Source: a phage. From it: 64,000 bases of DNA. Below the pieces are notes generated by a model. That model made no database searches and was not told where the DNA came from. It saw only the letters and a list, made by a program, of their open reading frames with translations. Below are positions 42,654 through 57,332 of the stretch, piece by piece. The stretch is taken from the sequence record PZ445551.1; one strand, 5' to 3'. The translations under genes and the position numbers were made by a program. Position 1 is the first letter of the stretch, and each line of letters opens with the position of its first letter.

Positions 42654-43826
42654 ATGACAGCACCAAAATCATGGGAACAATATAAAGAAGAATTAACACC
42701 CCTTGCTAAAAATCACAATATTCAAATCCTGGGTTATGTTGGTGAATGGAAAGGGAACAAGACTAAACTTAAGCTATCTTGCCCTAAACATGGAGAGTGG
42801 AACACCACGAACATTAATGATTTTAAGAAGGGACGTGGTTGTCCTATCTGTTCTGGTAAGAAGCCGTTAACATGGGAAACAGAATTGCCGATCTTGGAAG
42901 AGATAGCACAGAAGAGGGGGTATCAGGTGTTAGGGTACGTGGGAGAATGGAAAGGGAATAAAACAAAACTTGATTTGTTGTGTCATTGTGGTAATAAATG
43001 GGATACTACAAGTATTAACAATTTTAAACGTGGTAGCGGTTGTCCACAATGTAAGAGGGAGAGACAAACAATGTCCGACGATCAACATATTGCAGATTTC
43101 TTTTCTACAGGGGAATTTAAGGAAGGCACTATCTTCACCAATACAGGGAAACGTAACAAGCGTGATGCAGTATGGATGGTTGAGTGTCCTGTTTGCTCCC
43201 ATGATGAATATGTTCAAGCAGGTGTTTGTGATGGTAAATTTTACTCTGCAGGACATAACCTTAAACAAGGGTATATTCCGTGTCGTTGTGGGAACTATCA
43301 GTATACAGAAGACCAGATCACCTATAGGGTAAAAAAGGAAGTAGAAGGGAAAGGGTATGTCTGGGTAGATTGGATTACCAAACCCTCTTCTATAGGTAAG
43401 TTTAAATATCTTTGTCTTGTGCATGGTGAGCAGATAGGGAGTGCTCGTAATTTATTAAGCCTCGGTCAAGGTTGTCCACAGTGTGCTGGTCATAATCAAC
43501 AGCAATTATATATTAATATTGTTAAAGATAATGATATTATAGTTGCCCTTAAGTTTGGTATATCTAAAGATAGCGATAGACGATTAAACGGTCAAAATAG
43601 CCGTAATCTGTTTTTTATGGAGCGTATTTGTTTATATGATTTTAGCACAGTGAAACAATGTAGGGCTGCTGAAAGAGCTATAAAGAAAAAATTAAAAACT
43701 GGTATTTTAACGGCAAGAGAGTTGAAAGATGGTTATACAGAAACAGTAAGTGTTTCTGATTTGGAAAATCTTCAAAAAATTATTACACAATATGGTGGCA
43801 AATTAGTATACAGTAAGGAGATGTAA
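42654..43826 (+). CDS. Protein with three zinc-ribbon-type repeats (GCPxC) and a C-terminal T5orf172/GIY-YIG-like domain
   Basis: Tandem repeats LGYVGEWKGNKTKL...GCPICSG / ...GCPQCK / ...GCPQCAG; C-terminus IVALKFGISKDSDRRL resembles T5orf172. Confidence 0.55.
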   Translation: MTAPKSWEQYKEELTPLAKNHNIQILGYVGEWKGNKTKLKLSCPKHGEWNTTNINDFKKGRGCPICSGKKPLTWETELPILEEIAQKRGYQVLGYVGEWKGNKTKLDLLCHCGNKWDTTSINNFKRGSGCPQCKRERQTMSDDQHIADFFSTGEFKEGTIFTNTGKRNKRDAVWMVECPVCSHDEYVQAGVCDGKFYSAGHNLKQGYIPCRCGNYQYTEDQITYRVKKEVEGKGYVWVDWITKPSSIGKFKYLCLVHGEQIGSARNLLSLGQGCPQCAGHNQQQLYINIVKDNDIIVALKFGISKDSDRRLNGQNSRNLFFMERICLYDFSTVKQCRAAERAIKKKLKTGILTARELKDGYTETVSVSDLENLQKIITQYGGKLVYSKEM

Positions 43827-44378
43827 ATGCGGATTACTGATAAGTATGTGTTCTTCTTCTCGGCAAAAGATGAATTTAGCAACTGGTATCTATCATCTTT
43901 TATTGAACCTTTAGCTCCCAAGTATAATAATTCTATTACAAGTTCTGTTGAATTTACTTGTGTGGAACAATATATGATGTGGAGAAAAGCATGTTTGTTT
44001 TATGATTACAACATTGCATCTTCTATTTTAACCGGAGATCTAAGATATACAGGAGAAAAAGAACAAGCATATTATAAGCGACTAGGCAGATTAGTTAAAG
44101 ATTATGATGAAGATACCTGGACTTCTTTACGGGAGAAGATTGTCAAACGTGGTTTGTATCTTAAATACACACAAAATGAAGATCTCAAAAATAAACTTAT
44201 AGCCTACGCAGATAAGGAGTTCGTAGAGGCAAGCCCTTATGATTCTATTTATGGTATCAAAATGGGGATGTGGGATCGGGACGTGGAAAATAAGGATTGT
44301 TGGAAAGGACAAAATCTTTTAGGAAAATGGCATACAGACCTTGCTGTTTATCTAAAAGCACAATCTGATATTTCCTGA
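43827..44378 (+). CDS. NADAR-domain protein (YbiA-like; candidate DNA ADP-ribosyl-guanine hydrolase)
   Basis: Motifs FFFSAKDEFSNW, CVEQYMMWRKA, W-KGQNLLGKW agree with the NADAR/YbiA pattern; 183 aa. Confidence 0.55.
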   Translation: MRITDKYVFFFSAKDEFSNWYLSSFIEPLAPKYNNSITSSVEFTCVEQYMMWRKACLFYDYNIASSILTGDLRYTGEKEQAYYKRLGRLVKDYDEDTWTSLREKIVKRGLYLKYTQNEDLKNKLIAYADKEFVEASPYDSIYGIKMGMWDRDVENKDCWKGQNLLGKWHTDLAVYLKAQSDIS

Positions 44379-44596
44379 TATTTTGAAAATTTTTATTTTT
44401 ATAAAAAGGGGTGTGGGTTTCATGTACGGAAATTCACCCTCTGCACAGTATATCCAGAGTAAGTAGTATTCTATACCCTGTTAATAAAGTATTTAATTTG
44501 TTTGTTGGACTATGGTATCTGATCTTTAAAAGGCATACTATCTCTTAACTACTACTTATAACAGAACAGTAAAATCATTTTTATAAAAAGTACAAA

Positions 44597-44800
44597 ATTA
44601 TTTAAAGTTTTTACAGATTTTTGGGTACAAATTTTGAAAATGAAAAGTTCAAGTTTGGTCAAAATTATTTAAAGTTTTTGTACGTATTTCTATTCAGATT
44701 TTGAAAATGAAAACTTCAATTTTTTAAAAATTCCCCAGTTTATTTAAAGTTTTTTTGCCTTTTTCCGTAGAAAAATCAAAAATGAAAAGTTCAATTTCGT
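44597..44800. repeat. Three tandem direct repeats (about 65-75 bp units: TATTTAAAGTTTTT ... GAAAATGAAAAGTTCAA)
   Basis: Repeated unit read directly in an AT-rich non-coding stretch. Confidence 0.6.
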
Positions 44801-44817
44801 GTTTTTATAGGTGTGTT

Positions 44818-44928
44818 AATGAGAATCATTTTCGTTTGTAAATGAGAATCATTATCATTTAACTATGTAAGTGATAATCATTCTCAGTAAGAGAATGAGA
44901 ATCCTTAGCAAATGAGAATTTTCTCATT
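44818..44928. promoter_or_regulatory. Cluster of five AATGAGAATCATT / GATAATCATTCTC iteron-like sites (Fur-box-like), including the perfect 18-bp palindrome AATGAGAATTTTCTCATT
   Basis: Repeated half-sites resembling the GATAAT hexamer of the Fur box; non-coding. Confidence 0.45.
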
Positions 44929-45044
44929 TAGAGAATAACGCGCAGGGGTGGTGTTTGTCTCGCGCTCCCGTGTCCCCTCGCCATACAATAAGAATAGCAT
45001 AACCAACAACAAAAGCAAGCGATTATTTTTATCTTTACATTTCT

Positions 45045-45458
45045 TTACAAATTTATTTTAGACGAGCTACCGGCGATCAACCTTCCAACCAGTGCCCCCT
45101 GGTATGTTAGCCCCGCCTTTACGCCGTGGGGGTGGCGCTTCCTCTTCTGTATGTAAAACAGTATAAGCCCGATCCCTGGGCTTGTCAAGATTATTTTTTG
45201 TTTTCTTGCCAGGATAGGACACCTAACCAAAAATACATGTCGCCCCGCGCCCCCTGGTGGGATCTTGCTTTCCCCGCCGCCACTGCAAGCCCATAGATAA
45301 CCATTTGCGAACGTATCAAAATGATCTATTTCTTCCACCTTATGATCGCCCAGGTTGAGAACGGTTTCAACCTTTAAGCCCGTTGCGCTTGCTACCTGGT
45401 GCACCGTGCCGCCTTGCCAGCCTAATGAGTGCATGAGGTGTGAAGTAGTATTTGTCAT
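45045..45458 (-). CDS. Hypothetical ORF inside a GC-rich island (coding status uncertain)
   Basis: 137-aa ORF on the opposite strand from flanking genes; region is visibly GC-richer than its surroundings; no clear SD. Confidence 0.25.
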   Translation of the reverse strand: MTNTTSHLMHSLGWQGGTVHQVASATGLKVETVLNLGDHKVEEIDHFDTFANGYLWACSGGGESKIPPGGAGRHVFLVRCPILARKQKIILTSPGIGLILFYIQKRKRHPHGVKAGLTYQGALVGRLIAGSSSKINL

Positions 45459-45829
45459 GGTATCGCCCTTTCTTTGATGTGTGCCCTGGTTGGCGCGGTA
45501 GAAAGATAATAGCCCTTTCCTTTATAGATAGCAAGCAAAAAAGAAATGAAAAAAAGATTAAAAAAGGGGTTGACGTTCCTCACCTGGTAGCGTATTATTC
45601 ATCTTGTCGAGGGGGGCGAGGCACAACGACAATAAACAAAAGGAGGGCGCAATGTAGGACGGGCAAAGGTGAGGATCTCCACAATCCACCGTCACAATAA
45701 CATTACTTATAAAAGGTTGATAACGATGATCAAGAAAGAAAACAGCTTGACGGTTGGAACGATTAACGCTATCATTTTCGCCGTTCCATTTTGGGTTGTA
45801 GTAGCGGTTATTATCTTTTAAAAATATTC

Positions 45830-45887
45830 TTGACAACGTTTTTTAATCTGATAAGATGTATCACATAGGGCGGCAATAGTGCCGCTC
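45830..45887 (+). promoter_or_regulatory. sigma70-like promoter (TTGACA -35) + 5' GC stem-loop cassette
   Basis: TTGACA at 45830; stem-loop GGGCGGC-aatagt-GCCGCTC; ATG at 45910. Confidence 0.55.
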
Positions 45888-45909
45888 ATAACAGAAGAGA
45901 GAAATAATC

Positions 45910-46182
45910 ATGGCATCATATAGCGCATCAATGATCGTAACGGGCATCACTGGTAAACCTATGCGCGGTGGCGGATCTTTCGCTAACATCAATATTGATG
46001 GGCGTTTATCCCTGGACGCAGCGATCACAGTGGCACGGGAAACGTTTAAAAAAGAATGTAATTTCAATAAACAAGATTATCTCGGTTTCGCTATTGAAAA
46101 AACCGCGCGCTTTGTTGATTATAAAAGCCCGAAAATGGTTGATACTACACTAAAAGCGCAAGATGTAGCATTTTTGCTTTAA
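45910..46182 (+). CDS. Hypothetical early protein
   Basis: 90-aa ORF behind a promoter/stem-loop cassette. Confidence 0.6.
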   Translation: MASYSASMIVTGITGKPMRGGGSFANINIDGRLSLDAAITVARETFKKECNFNKQDYLGFAIEKTARFVDYKSPKMVDTTLKAQDVAFLL

Positions 46183-46185
46183 GGC

Positions 46186-46246
46186 TTGACACTGAAAAAT
46201 AATTTGGTAATATATACTACATAGGGCGGGGAAATGGTTTCCCGCC
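46186..46246 (+). promoter_or_regulatory. sigma70-like promoter + 5' GC stem-loop cassette
   Basis: TTGACA at 46186; stem-loop GGGCGGGG-aaatggttt-CCCGCC; ATG at 46269. Confidence 0.55.
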
Positions 46247-55571: not shown

Positions 55572-55583
55572 ATAACATTTCAT

Positions 55584-55613
55584 ACCAGGGCGCACAAAGC
55601 GCCCTTTCTTTTT
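55584..55613 (+). terminator. Rho-independent terminator (AGGGCGC-acaaa-GCGCCCT + TTCTTTTT)
   Basis: Perfect stem with T-tract right after the 55188-55571 stop. Confidence 0.7.
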
Positions 55614-55817
55614 ACCTAAATAAAGATGATAGCTTTTACCTATCAAAAACGTTCACCGAAAAAAGTGAATAGATCGCGGTATCGAGCTAATCAAGGAGCA
55701 GATGAACAACCATACCATGAAGATCATAAGGCGCTTACAACGTGTTTTAGACCGCTTATTTTTAATTTCTCAATGTAACTATCTGGCAAAAACAGCCTTT
55801 TTCTTGTCTTTCCTCTT

Positions 55818-55893
55818 AAATGATAATCATTCTTATTTATAGCTGATTATTTATGCAATAAACTGAATAATGCAATAATGATAATCATTCTTA
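55818..55893. promoter_or_regulatory. Two Fur-box-like sites (AATGATAATCATTCTTA)
   Basis: Two copies, each matching most of the E. coli Fur consensus GATAATGATAATCATTATC. Confidence 0.45.
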
Positions 55894-56250
55894 ACTTATG
55901 ACCATCTAACCTATAAAATAATAAGTTATCTAACTAAATTAAAACTAATTATCTCACCTTTATTTATAACTTACTGTTACTATCTCATTGATAACCTTAT
56001 ATTAAACAACAATAACCAATATAAATCATTACTAAGCTAAATATAATCTATCTAACCTTTAAAACTATAACTATAATCTATCGAATTGTTGCACAAAGTA
56101 ACTATTAAATTGTTAGTAACATTACTAAATAATTAATATCCTATCTATTTATGATCTAATCTTTATCTTCCTATCTATTACCTAAATAATCATTTCATAC
56201 AGTAATCATTTCATACAATAATTATAACAAGAAATATAATTCGCAAGCGT

Positions 56251-56430
56251 ATCATTAGCAGCCTATGCCGGACACATAGGCGGCTAATAATAACGCAACT
56301 ACACACCCCACATAATAACCATCACCGATAGTTATTATTTGTGCTTATGTAGCTTGCAACAATTGCAAGCGCAACAATATACATGGTATATTGTATCCCT
56401 TACATTGTTGCGGTGCGTTATTATTAGCTA
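56251..56430. repeat. Large imperfect inverted repeat with nested palindromes (CCTATG/CATAGG; CTTGCAA-caa-TTGCAAG; GCTAATAATAACGCAAC / GTTGCG..GTTATTATTAGC)
   Basis: Inverted-repeat arms read directly in an AT-rich non-coding region; could form a cruciform or hairpin. Confidence 0.5.
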
Positions 56431-56756
56431 ATGTTTAGAACATTGGCTATAATATAAGCTAAGTAATAAGCTATGCAATAATAAACATGGTGAATAATGA
56501 CATTGATGATCATAATGCGCCACCTTCCAGGGGGCGCTATGTGAACACAAAGAAATCTTTCTTGTCAAGAAAAAATATTGCCATTATTGCGCAAAATTAT
56601 TTATATCTGAATAGATGATTTTTCATACTATTGCCCCATATAACATACCTCATTTGTTGAGCATAGTTATAGCCTATTTGTTGAGCCTACTTTCTTAAAA
56701 GCGCAATAAATCAGAATTATCTTGATTTTTAGTCTGTTTTATAGTATAGAAAGTAT

Positions 56757-56778
56757 GCAAATGATAATCATTATCAGC
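56757..56778. promoter_or_regulatory. Fur-box-like site containing AATGATAATCATTATC (16/16 match to consensus positions 4-19)
   Basis: Direct match to the canonical Fur box core. Confidence 0.5.
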
Positions 56779-56940
56779 TATCTTCCACGGGTAGCACTAT
56801 TTCACGCCAGATCATTTCATTTGGCAAGGTGTATATAGATGTTTAGACTTGCCAAGCCATTGATTTACTTAGAATTTATCTGTTTTGTTGTGAGTAGAGC
56901 CTTTCTTGCTCAGAAAATAATCAAAAGTCTTATAAGTCAT

Positions 56941-56976
56941 TGAATGATAATGCAAATGATAATTATTCTCATTGAT
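56941..56976. promoter_or_regulatory. Fur-box-like repeats (TGAATGATAATGCAAATGATAATTATTCTCATTGAT)
   Basis: Tandem GATAAT-type hexamers. Confidence 0.4.
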
Positions 56977-57332
56977 ATTTGAGGGGGACGGTCGGCAGAA
57001 ATCGGGGGGCGCTGAAAATCGCGTTAAGCACCTCTCGCAAGCGAGCAGTATTTTGCGGCAAGTTATTGATATTATTGGCTTTACGCTTATGAAAAGGGGG
57101 TGTGTCGAAATAAATCGGGTATACCGGAAAATTTTTGTGGCATAGATATTTATTTGTCTATATTATGTACAAAAGGGTGTGTTAAAAATATTAGGTATAT
57201 ATAGAATAATTGATAGGGAAATCCTATACTAATTCCTCCATTAATGATGTTTCTATGTTACTGTTCTTGTAACAGATGAAAAGACGCTGTATGATGTGTG
57301 GCATGAAACGTAAATTTATAAAGGAGTCTGAT

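What the first reader, a model, noticed from the sequence alone, without database searches (positions are those of the whole stretch)
44597..44800. Three tandem ~65-75 bp direct repeats in AT-rich non-coding DNA (origin or packaging candidate)
Each unit carries TATTTAAAGTTTTT and, about 25 nt later, GAAAATGAAAAGTTCAA. Tandem iterons next to inverted-repeat clusters are typical of replication origins or pac sites; alternatively they are arrays of binding sites for a phage regulator.
Basis: seen in the sequence. Interest (0 to 1): 0.5.

Follow-up and report, generated by a model that had tools for sequence, protein, structure and literature searches.

The report
Conserved three-unit DNA-binding repeat array
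Three tandem 67-75-bp repeats in a gene-free stretch of a phi92-like coliphage are real, occur once in the genome and keep their layout across two phage subfamilies, so they are most likely docking sites for a phage protein, perhaps at the unmapped replication origin or an early-gene control region, and they are not the DNA-packaging site.

Summary
Three head-to-tail units start at 44594, 44661 and 44736. Each has box A (TTATTTAAAGTTTTT), a 24-nt variable spacer and box B (AAAATGAAAAGTTCAAGTTT). The window is a Justusliebigvirus (phi92-like) coliphage, and the array is the only such locus in the 146-kb genome. All 56 close relatives keep it. More distant Stephanstirmvirinae keep the same three units in register: A-to-B spacing is always 39 bp and the array spans 138-143 bp. 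Vequintavirinae carry three units of different sequence at the same place with the same span. Within the genus no box position varies, against about 11% of flanking positions. The DNA is 22% G+C, predicted bent and easily melted. The units hold no sigma-70 promoter, ORF or conserved RNA fold. The physical ends (342-bp terminal repeat, mapped in phage BME3) lie 12 kb away, which argues against the packaging reading. The array belongs to a conserved non-coding region that also holds Fur-box-like palindromes, a GTAAA-N5-GTAAA box and conserved leftward promoter-like sites aimed at the repeats. Best reading: binding sites for a co-evolving phage protein, most likely a transcription-activated replication origin (about 0.35-0.4). 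A transcriptional control element is nearly as likely. Function is untested.

The parts
44594..44660 (+). Unit 1 (67 bp): box A 44598-44612 TTATTTAAAGTTTTT, 24-nt spacer 44613-44636, box B 44637-44656 AAAATGAAAAGTTCAAGTTT
44661..44735 (+). Unit 2 (75 bp): box A 44665-44679, spacer 44680-44703, box B 44704-44723 AAAATGAAAACTTCAATTTT, then a 16-nt linker with the conserved AAAATTCCCCA
44736..44813 (+). Unit 3: box A 44740-44754, spacer 44755-44778, box B 44779-44798 AAAATGAAAAGTTCAATTTC. The first palindrome follows 78 bp after box A3; this distance is 78-80 bp in all five Stephanstirmvirinae compared.
44815..44929 (.). Adjacent module: four Fur-box-like 19-mers (44815, 44838, 44867, 44891; 15-16 of 19 matches to GATAATGATAATCATTATC) and the palindrome AAATGAGAATTTTCTCATTT at 44910-44929
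   Evidence: similar arrays in the T5-like LTR and before a siderophore operon
44991..45018 (-). Predicted leftward sigma-70 promoter P2 (TTGCTT-16-TATTCT, 8 of 12 here). The orthologous site scores 9-10 of 12 and is the best or joint-best minus-strand match in 8 of 10 relatives. It points through the palindromes into the repeats.
   Evidence: prediction only
45034..45048 (-). GTAAA-N5-GTAAA box (matches the CpxR-box consensus as I recall it). It is the only one in the genome and is invariant in 10 phages. In 8 relatives it ends 5-6 bp upstream of the -35 of P2; in the window and phAPEC8 a roughly 10-nt insertion (ATTATTTTTA) widens the gap to about 15 bp.
45160..45188 (-). Second leftward promoter-like site, TTGACA-17-TATACT (11 of 12), with a G+C hairpin in its spacer. 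It is conserved in all relatives compared.
44402..44439 (-). Terminator-like hairpin plus U5 on the minus strand. It would end leftward transcripts just after they cross the repeats. It is clear here and in Tr1 and weaker in others.

Best explanation
The three units are a single-copy array of bipartite protein-binding sites. Each unit is box A, a 24-nt variable spacer and box B, which gives six boxes in about 200 bp. They lie on very AT-rich DNA that is predicted to be intrinsically bent and easily melted.

The array is one module of a conserved non-coding control region of about 800 nt. This region sits at the inner border of the terminal early-gene block in phi92/rV5-like phages. Its order is: minus-strand terminator-like hairpin, three units, Fur-box-like palindromes, leftward promoter with a GTAAA-N5-GTAAA box, G+C-rich conserved block, second leftward promoter.

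Inferred mechanism:
- A phage-encoded sequence-specific protein, whose specificity co-evolves with the boxes, occupies the boxes and wraps the bent DNA.
- Host RNA polymerase transcribes in from the right-hand promoters and helps open or prime this weakest duplex.
- The phage's T7-type replisome (Pol I plus primase/helicase) loads there.

In short, this would be an iteron-type, transcription-activated replication origin.

What is shown: the repeats, their uniqueness, the conservation of layout and spacing, selection on the boxes, the predicted DNA physical properties, and the absence of a promoter, ORF or RNA fold. What is inferred: protein binding, the identity of the binder, transcription from the predicted promoters, and the origin function. 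My confidence that it is a protein-binding cis-element is about 0.75. My confidence that it is specifically the origin is about 0.35-0.4.
For: - **Uniqueness.** There is one locus in the 146-kb genome. In the viral contig collection only two contigs carry three matches, and both are large.
- **Conservation.** The array is at least 95% identical in 56 Justusliebigvirus records. Tr1, KP2025, FKP3, phAPEC8 and ETEC-TG keep three units in register at about 70% identity. A-to-B spacing is exactly 39 bp in every unit in which both boxes were located. A1-A2 is 66-67 bp and A2-A3 is 72-76 bp. U1, U2 and U3 each keep their own orthologous features.
- **Co-evolution with a phage protein.** Box B changed in the same way in all three units of the window's clade. 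phAPEC8, which also infects E. coli, keeps the other box B type, so the change does not track the host.
- **Parallel array in Vequintavirinae.** These phages have three units of different sequence at the same position. TCTCGATCG is followed by CGTA at a fixed offset of 26 bp, and most units hold two GATC. The span is 141-143 bp, and the same palindromes and G+C block follow.
- **Selection.** Among 6 genomes, 0 of 105 box positions vary, against 5 of 102 spacer or linker positions and 38 of 355 flank positions. Fisher p = 6e-5 for boxes against flanks.
- **DNA properties.** The array is 21.7% G+C and lies in the second least stable 400-bp stretch of the window. Predicted curvature stays above about the 96th percentile over 44580-44810 and peaks at the 99.9th. 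Curvature is also high in the other Stephanstirmvirinae arrays.
- **Transcription aimed at the array.** Conserved leftward promoter-like sites lie at 45188-45160 and at the P2 position. A terminator-like hairpin lies beyond the array.
- **Replisome type.** The annotated replisome is T7-type: DNA polymerase I and primase/helicase. From established knowledge, the T7 primary origin is promoters followed by an AT-rich stretch.
Against: - There is no experimental datum of any kind.
- No initiator gene is recognisable nearby. The AAA+ ATPase two genes upstream is generic, and the flanking genes differ between subfamilies.
- The units are far longer than classical 17-22-bp iterons.
- There are no DnaA boxes or IHF consensus sites in 44300-45300.
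- AT-richness and curvature are weak in the Vequintavirinae arrays, so these are not the universally conserved properties.
- A second non-coding region (55.6-57.3 kb) is even less stable and has its own short TATCT repeats. It is a competing origin candidate.
- The T5 region that shares the palindromes is thought not to be an origin (Davison preprint).
- All promoters and the terminator are consensus predictions, and P2 scores only 8 of 12 in this window.
- The curvature parameters were recalled from memory.
Confidence: 0.38

Rival explanations
1. Transcriptional control element. The units would be operator- or enhancer-like sites for a phage regulator, or part of a regulated leftward non-coding transcript of about 580 nt. 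Together with host Fur and a CpxR-type regulator bound next door, they would set early-to-middle timing or couple phage development to host iron or envelope status.
For: - The array keeps a fixed distance (78-80 bp) to the first Fur-like palindrome in five phages.
- The palindromes match the Fur consensus at 15-16 of 19 positions and resemble a siderophore-operon operator.
- An invariant GTAAA-N5-GTAAA box lies just upstream of a conserved leftward promoter.
- The units lie inside the predicted leftward transcription unit, which ends at a terminator-like hairpin.
- The region heads a block of small early genes, each with a strong sigma-70 promoter.
Against: - One locus cannot directly control the many individually promoted early genes.
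- No promoter lies in or next to the units on either strand.
- There is no consensus RNA structure on either strand.
- No regulator gene is conserved alongside.
Confidence: 0.3
2. DNA-entry checkpoint analogous to the T5 injection-stop region. The non-coding region would pause genome transfer after the terminal segment of about 12 kb (8% of the genome) that carries early genes.
For: - BLAST finds the adjacent palindrome array in the non-coding 'iss' region of T5-like left terminal repeats, beside DnaA and LexA boxes and other iterons.
- The array lies about 12 kb of 146 kb from the right physical end.
- The same order, units then early genes then terminal repeat, is found in KPP-1.
Against: - The similarity concerns the palindromes, not the three units.
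- There are no DnaA boxes here.
- The terminal repeat is only 342 bp.
- Genes between the array and the right end are transcribed towards that end.
- It is unknown which end enters first.
- Even in T5 the role of this region is a hypothesis.
Confidence: 0.07
3. Packaging (pac) or terminase recognition site, or a genome terminus.
For: Tandem repeats with flanking palindromes occur at some pac sites. A few relatives' records start within about 100 bp of the array (PP357458, PQ002170, OR786310).
Against: - The direct terminal repeat of BME3, 342 bp by PhageTerm, maps to 56757-57098.
- In KPP-1 the array is about 8.4 kb from the terminal repeat.
- The large terminase gene is about 70 kb away.
- Record starts at tandem repeats are expected assembly break points.
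Confidence: 0.03
4. Functionless tandem duplication, or another sequence-level reading: tandem sigma-70 promoters, structured RNA repeats, a mini CRISPR-like array, or small ORFs.
For: AT-rich intergenic DNA is prone to slippage duplications. Box B contains an ATG in this clade.
Against: - The triplication predates the split of the genera and is held in register with exact spacing.
- The boxes are invariant within the genus.
- There are no promoter hexamers.
- RNAalifold predicts 0 pairs on either strand.
- The ATG is absent in relatives.
- The linkers differ in length and the spacers are orthologously conserved, unlike CRISPR arrays.
Confidence: 0.04

Closest known systems
Iteron-type origins (phage lambda ori, plasmid and P1 oriR iterons)
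   Same: Several direct repeats form a single-copy non-coding locus. The DNA is intrinsically bent, with the weakest duplex of the neighbourhood adjacent or overlapping. Repeat sequences co-vary with the replicon lineage. The Vequintavirinae version is rich in GATC, like oriC and P1 oriR.
   Different: The units are bipartite and about 59 bp long with 67 and 75 bp spacing, not 17-22 bp at about two helical turns. No initiator gene overlaps or adjoins the array. There are no DnaA or IHF sites. Binding and replication are untested.
Transcription-activated phage origins (T7 primary origin, T4 oriF/oriG)
   Same: Promoter-like sites are aimed into an AT-rich, easily unwound stretch. The phage has a T7-type Pol I plus primase/helicase replisome.
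   Different: The promoters are host sigma-70 type and lie 180-550 nt upstream, with operator-like palindromes in between. T7 and T4 origins have no iteron array.
T5 left-terminal-repeat 'Repeat Region 3' (putative injection stop signal)
   Same: It is a long, highly conserved non-coding region at the border of the first-expressed gene block. It shares the AATGAGAATCATT-type palindrome arrays, has phage-specific direct repeats next to them, and lies about 8% of the genome length from an end.
   Different: T5 has paired DnaA boxes and a LexA box and lies within a 10-kb terminal repeat. The three units of this finding have no counterpart there. Neither region has a proven function.
Terminase recognition arrays (lambda cosB R1-R3, P1 pac hexamer repeats)
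   Same: There are three or more repeated protein sites on bent DNA, and GATC-containing repeats in the Vequintavirinae version.
   Different: The array is not at or near the genome ends or the terminase genes.

Membership tests
Iteron-type replication origin | Array of direct repeats at a single locus, conserved within the replicon lineage | tested here: met
   three units, unique in the genome, kept in register in six phages.
Iteron-type replication origin | Adjacent or overlapping AT-rich DNA-unwinding region | tested here: met
   21.7% G+C and the second least stable 400-bp stretch of the 64-kb window. This is weaker in Vequintavirinae.
Iteron-type replication origin | Short iterons (about 17-22 bp) phased at about two helical turns | tested here: not met
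   bipartite 59-bp units, A-to-B 39 bp, periods 67 and 75 bp.
Iteron-type replication origin | Initiator gene overlapping or next to the iterons | tested here: not met
   the neighbours are a generic AAA+ ATPase, a homing endonuclease and a NADAR protein. Neighbours differ between subfamilies.
Iteron-type replication origin | Host DnaA boxes or IHF sites | tested here: not met
   none in 44300-45300.
Iteron-type replication origin | Initiator binding and origin activity | not testable with these tools
   Needs footprinting, marker-frequency analysis or an ori-cloning assay.
Transcription-activated phage origin (T7/T4 type) | Promoter directed into an AT-rich region | tested here: inconclusive
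   conserved leftward sigma-70-like sites at 45188-45160 and at the P2 position. They are predictions only and lie 180-550 nt from the array.
Transcription-activated phage origin (T7/T4 type) | T7-type replisome genes in the genome | tested here: met
   DNA polymerase I and primase/helicase are annotated in the record that matches the window.
pac / terminase recognition site | Lies at or next to the virion DNA ends or the terminase genes | tested here: not met
   the BME3 terminal repeat maps to 56757-57098; terL is about 70 kb away.
T5 injection-stop region | Paired DnaA boxes in large inverted repeats | tested here: not met
T5 injection-stop region | Conserved non-coding repeat region about 8% from an end, bordering the first-expressed genes | tested here: inconclusive
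   the palindromes are shared and the array is about 12 kb of 146 kb from the right end. The entry direction is unknown.
Tandem sigma-70 early promoters (as T7 A1-A3) | -35 and -10 hexamers at 16-18 bp in each unit | tested here: not met
   no conserved match in the units on either strand.
Structured RNA repeats | Conserved base-paired fold | tested here: not met
   0 predicted pairs on either strand; no Rfam match.
Sigma-54 enhancer (UAS) array | bEBP with a GAFTGA motif and a -24/-12 promoter downstream | tested here: not met
   neither is present.

The most novel reading that the evidence does not exclude
The repeats, Fur-like palindromes and GTAAA-N5-GTAAA box may form a host-signal-gated commitment switch. 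In one version it is an origin whose firing is licensed by host iron and envelope-stress regulators. In another it is a T5-iss-like checkpoint on the terminal 8% of the genome. Either would let these nominally virulent phages idle in the cell. That would help explain why rV5-like and phi92-like phages are among the commonest 'persistent virulent phages' found in bacterial isolates (bioRxiv 10.1101/2024.12.31.630880). The palindromes recur exactly at the terminal-repeat boundary (56757) and in T5-like terminal repeats, which suggests a module shared between unrelated lytic phages.
Probability: 0.1. Interest if true: 0.8.

Novelty: new variant of a known kind. Interest (0 to 1): 0.55.

Why it matters
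phi92-, phAPEC8- and rV5-like myoviruses are widely isolated and used as therapeutic or biocontrol phages, yet their origin of replication and early regulatory circuitry are unmapped. Public records mark this locus only as 'repeat_region' or overlay it with tiny hypothetical ORFs. If the array is a selected, single-copy protein-docking site in a conserved control region, it gives three things:
- a concrete target for origin mapping and phage engineering, such as safe insertion sites or conditional replication;
- a handle to fish out the unknown binding protein;
- a testable link between host iron or envelope-stress regulators and lytic phage development.

Tried and rejected
- **Sigma-70 promoters in the units.** The consensus scan and my own scan of nine relatives found no conserved hexamer pair in or just after the units on the plus strand. 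The minus strand has one unconserved 9-of-12 match in unit 2.
- **Structured RNA.** RNAalifold on 15 units, both strands, predicted 0 pairs. Rfam gave nothing relevant.
- **Coding.** There is no ORF of 40 aa or more. The ATG in box B is clade-specific.
- **Dispersed promoter motif.** The boxes occur nowhere else in the window or the genome.
- **Host-factor sites in the units.** DnaA, IHF and LexA consensus sites are absent in 44300-45300.
- **Sigma-54 enhancer read from the nearby AAA+ ATPase.** There is no GAFTGA motif and no -24/-12 promoter. A sequence search of solved structures gave only generic AAA+ hits.
- **Conserved neighbouring gene as binder.** The upstream genes differ between subfamilies, and the 270-290-aa Vequintavirinae protein has no homologue in this genome.
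- **Packaging site.** Rejected by the terminal-repeat mapping.
- **Plasmid origin or resident episome.** Plasmids match only at Fur-like boxes, and complete E. coli genomes give no match.
- **Wider sampling.** An IMG/VR pattern scan added only two related contigs.
- **Literature.** I found no description of these repeats. The phi92 genome paper is not held.
- **Curvature and AT-richness as the conserved property.** This holds in Stephanstirmvirinae but not in Vequintavirinae.

Full report
**1. What the window is.** The 801 bases around the finding are 100% identical to Escherichia phage VivaForever and 96-99% identical to about 55 other Justusliebigvirus (phi92-like, Stephanstirmvirinae) genomes. 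I joined the window to the rest of that record, whose overlapping ends matched exactly, to obtain the full 146,096-bp genome. In window coordinates:
- Genes on the minus strand from about 2.9 to 39.3 kb are the replication and nucleotide-metabolism block. They include DNA polymerase I, primase/helicase, a helicase and ribonucleotide reductases.
- A short plus-strand group (39.9-44.4 kb) encodes a generic AAA+ ATPase, a homing endonuclease and a NADAR protein.
- A gene-free stretch follows from 44379.
- From 45.5 kb onward there are dozens of small plus-strand genes, each behind a strong sigma-70 promoter.

Three head-to-tail units start at 44594, 44661 and 44736, with periods of 67 and 75 bp. 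Each unit is box A TTATTTAAAGTTTTT (identical three times), a 24-nt variable spacer and box B AAAATGAAAAGTTCAAGTTT with 0-3 differences. The boxes occur together nowhere else in the window or in the whole genome. No ORF of 40 aa or more overlaps the array. It is 21.7% G+C.

**3. Comparative anatomy is the strongest evidence.**
- More distant Stephanstirmvirinae are only about 70% identical here: Citrobacter phage Tr1, Klebsiella phages KP2025 and FKP3, and the Phapecoctavirus phages phAPEC8 and ETEC-TG. All have three units that align in register.
- Box A to box B is exactly 39 bp in every unit in which both boxes were located. A1-A2 is 66-67 bp and A2-A3 is 72-76 bp, so the array spans 138-143 bp.
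- Each of U1, U2 and U3 keeps its own orthologous peculiarities, for example the AAAATTCCCCA linker after U2. The triplication is therefore ancient and has been maintained, not recently generated.
- Box B of the window's clade differs from the AAAAcCAAAATTTAAAGTTT of the other genera at the same positions in all three units. phAPEC8, another E. coli phage, keeps the other type. The boxes thus change in concert and do not track the host.
- Vequintavirinae (KaOmega, KE22, LNA4, BIS47 and about 65 further records) carry three units of unrelated sequence at the equivalent place. TCTCGATCG is followed at a fixed offset of 26 bp by CGTATTTT and then by GAAAAAATTTTT, and most units hold two GATC. The periods are 74-78 and 63-67 bp, so the span is again 141-143 bp. 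The same downstream modules follow.
- Among six Justusliebigvirus genomes, 0 of 105 box positions vary, against 5 of 102 spacer or linker positions and 38 of 355 positions in the non-coding flanks. Fisher p = 2e-4 for the array against the flanks and 6e-5 for the boxes against the flanks.
- Exact spacing, concerted box change, lineage-specific sequence under a constant architecture and purifying selection are what one expects of sites for a sequence-specific, phage-encoded DNA-binding protein. That step is an inference, because no binding was tested.

**4. Physical properties.** A wedge-model calculation, using Bolshoy/Trifonov parameters recalled from memory, predicts curvature above about the 96th percentile continuously over 44580-44810, with a peak at the 99.9th. 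Nearest-neighbour stability puts 44482-44881 as the second least stable 400-bp stretch of the window. Curvature and AT-richness are shared by the other Stephanstirmvirinae arrays but are weak in Vequintavirinae. They are therefore a feature of this subfamily's version, not the universally conserved property.

**5. What it is not.**
- It is not a set of sigma-70 promoters.
- It is not a structured RNA: RNAalifold gives 0 pairs on both strands and there is no Rfam hit.
- It is not coding.
- It is not a sigma-54 enhancer.
- It is not a cluster of DnaA, IHF or LexA sites.
- It is not found in plasmids or complete E. coli genomes.
- It is not at the genome end. For the close relative BME3, PhageTerm gave 342-bp direct terminal repeats (PMC12210895). 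The annotated repeat maps at 96.5% identity to window 56757-57098, 12 kb to the right. In KPP-1 (Vequintavirinae) the terminal repeat is at 116316-116829 (PMC9862379) and the three-unit array at 125230-125470. The order units, then 8-12 kb of early genes, then terminal repeat is therefore conserved, and the array is not the terminus.

**6. The surrounding control region.**
- Immediately right of the units lie four 19-mers that match the Fur-box consensus (recalled from memory) at 15-16 of 19 positions, plus a perfect palindrome, within 44815-44929. Sites of that quality are otherwise concentrated in the other large non-coding region, including one that starts exactly at the terminal-repeat boundary, 56757.
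- BLAST of this stretch hits the non-coding 'injection stop' region of T5-like left terminal repeats, which holds the same palindromes beside DnaA and LexA boxes. It also hits the region just upstream of an IucA/IucC siderophore operon on Moraxella plasmids.
- Further right come an invariant GTAAA-N5-GTAAA box (the CpxR-box consensus as I recall it, and the only one in the genome) and a conserved minus-strand promoter-like site. In 8 of 10 phages that site starts 5-6 bp after the box. The window's orthologue is weaker and sits about 15 bp away because of a roughly 10-nt insertion.
- Next is a G+C-rich block that is about 83% identical across both subfamilies, with two plus-strand hairpins.
- Last is a second leftward site, TTGACA-17-TATACT.
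- Left of the units there is a minus-strand hairpin plus U5.
- Taken together, leftward host transcription is predicted to run through the palindromes and the three units and then stop. All of this is prediction.

**7. Interpretation.**
- I am fairly confident (about 0.75) that the array is a cis-acting protein-binding site.
- I rank a transcription-activated, iteron-type replication origin first (about 0.35-0.4). The array is single-copy, sits on the weakest and most bent DNA next to the replication gene block, and has promoters aimed at it. The phage has a T7-type replisome, and T7's own origin is promoters plus an AT-rich stretch (established knowledge).
- Against the origin reading: there is no initiator gene, the units are atypically long, and there are no DnaA or IHF sites. 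There is also a competing candidate at 55.6-57.3 kb, which is the least stable DNA of the window, carries many TATCT short repeats and is adjacent to the terminal repeat.
- A transcriptional control role is nearly as likely (about 0.3), given the fixed register with operator-like palindromes.
- A T5-like DNA-entry checkpoint is a low-probability but interesting reading.
- The packaging reading and the no-function reading are disfavoured.

**8. Novelty.** Public records only flag a 'repeat_region' (alia, inny) or overlay tiny hypothetical ORFs. The rV5 paper mentions an unexplained non-coding box and failed to find an origin by skew. I found no paper that describes these units. I class this as a new variant of a known kind, namely iteron-like binding arrays in phage control regions, with untested function.

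Noticed in passing
44815-44929; 55816-55892; 56757-56775; 56946-56976: Fur-box-like palindromes (15-17 of 19 matches to GATAATGATAATCATTATC) are concentrated in the two large non-coding regions. That is 7 of the 10 best sites in the 146-kb genome. One starts exactly at the boundary of the BME3-type terminal repeat (56757). The KPP-1 terminal repeat and T5-like left terminal repeats carry the same motif.
   Followed up: partly
56757-57098: The 342-bp direct terminal repeat annotated in phage BME3 maps here at 96.5% identity. The physical genome ends probably lie in this window, inside a 1.7-kb non-coding region (55572-57275).
   Followed up: partly
55900-56240: This is the least stable DNA of the window. 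It has about nine short TATCT(A/C)-type repeats and a 16-nt tandem repeat (56185-56222). It may be another binding-site array and a competing origin candidate.
   Followed up: no
45034-45048 (minus strand): GTAAAGAAATGTAAA fits GTAAA-N5-GTAAA, the CpxR-box consensus as I recall it. It is unique in the genome and invariant in 10 phages of two subfamilies. In 8 relatives it ends 5-6 bp upstream of a conserved leftward promoter-like site.
   Followed up: partly
45060-45150: A G+C-rich non-coding block is about 83% identical across Stephanstirmvirinae and Vequintavirinae. Its core CTACCGGCGATCAACCTTC is even found in Aeromonas phages. Two hairpins with G-U pairs are predicted on the plus strand, followed by a U-rich tail. 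There is no Rfam family. It could be an unknown RNA or a DNA element.
   Followed up: partly
45160-45188 (minus strand): A near-consensus TTGACA-17-TATACT site has a spacer that forms a G+C hairpin. The hairpin varies in sequence between phages. It appears to be a terminator of the small minus-strand ORF overlapping a promoter.
   Followed up: partly
45570-46240: Four strong plus-strand sigma-70 promoters lie at 45570, 45747, 45830 and 46186. At least three are followed by a conserved leader of the type ACATAGGGCGGCAATAGTGCC, which is annotated as a 'PHIRE promoter' in phAPEC8. It looks like a conserved 5' leader hairpin of early mRNAs.
   Followed up: no
45045-45458 (minus strand): The 137-aa ORF runs over the promoter-terminator and the conserved block. 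Only its first 76 or so residues match a phage family (phrog_19316), and relatives annotate 70-92 aa. The long ORF is probably an over-extension. The minus-strand ORFs at this position differ between related phages.
   Followed up: partly
42654-43826: A CapR/T5orf172-type homing endonuclease gene lies between the ATPase and NADAR genes. The gene at this position varies in size among relatives (1398 nt in alia), and other relatives have different genes there, which is consistent with a mobile insertion.
   Followed up: no
search results for 44560-44830: Four records named 'Campylobacter phage' (A150, A145, C3, A110a) are 99.3% identical to this coliphage locus. This suggests mislabelled hosts or contamination in those deposits.
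   Followed up: no
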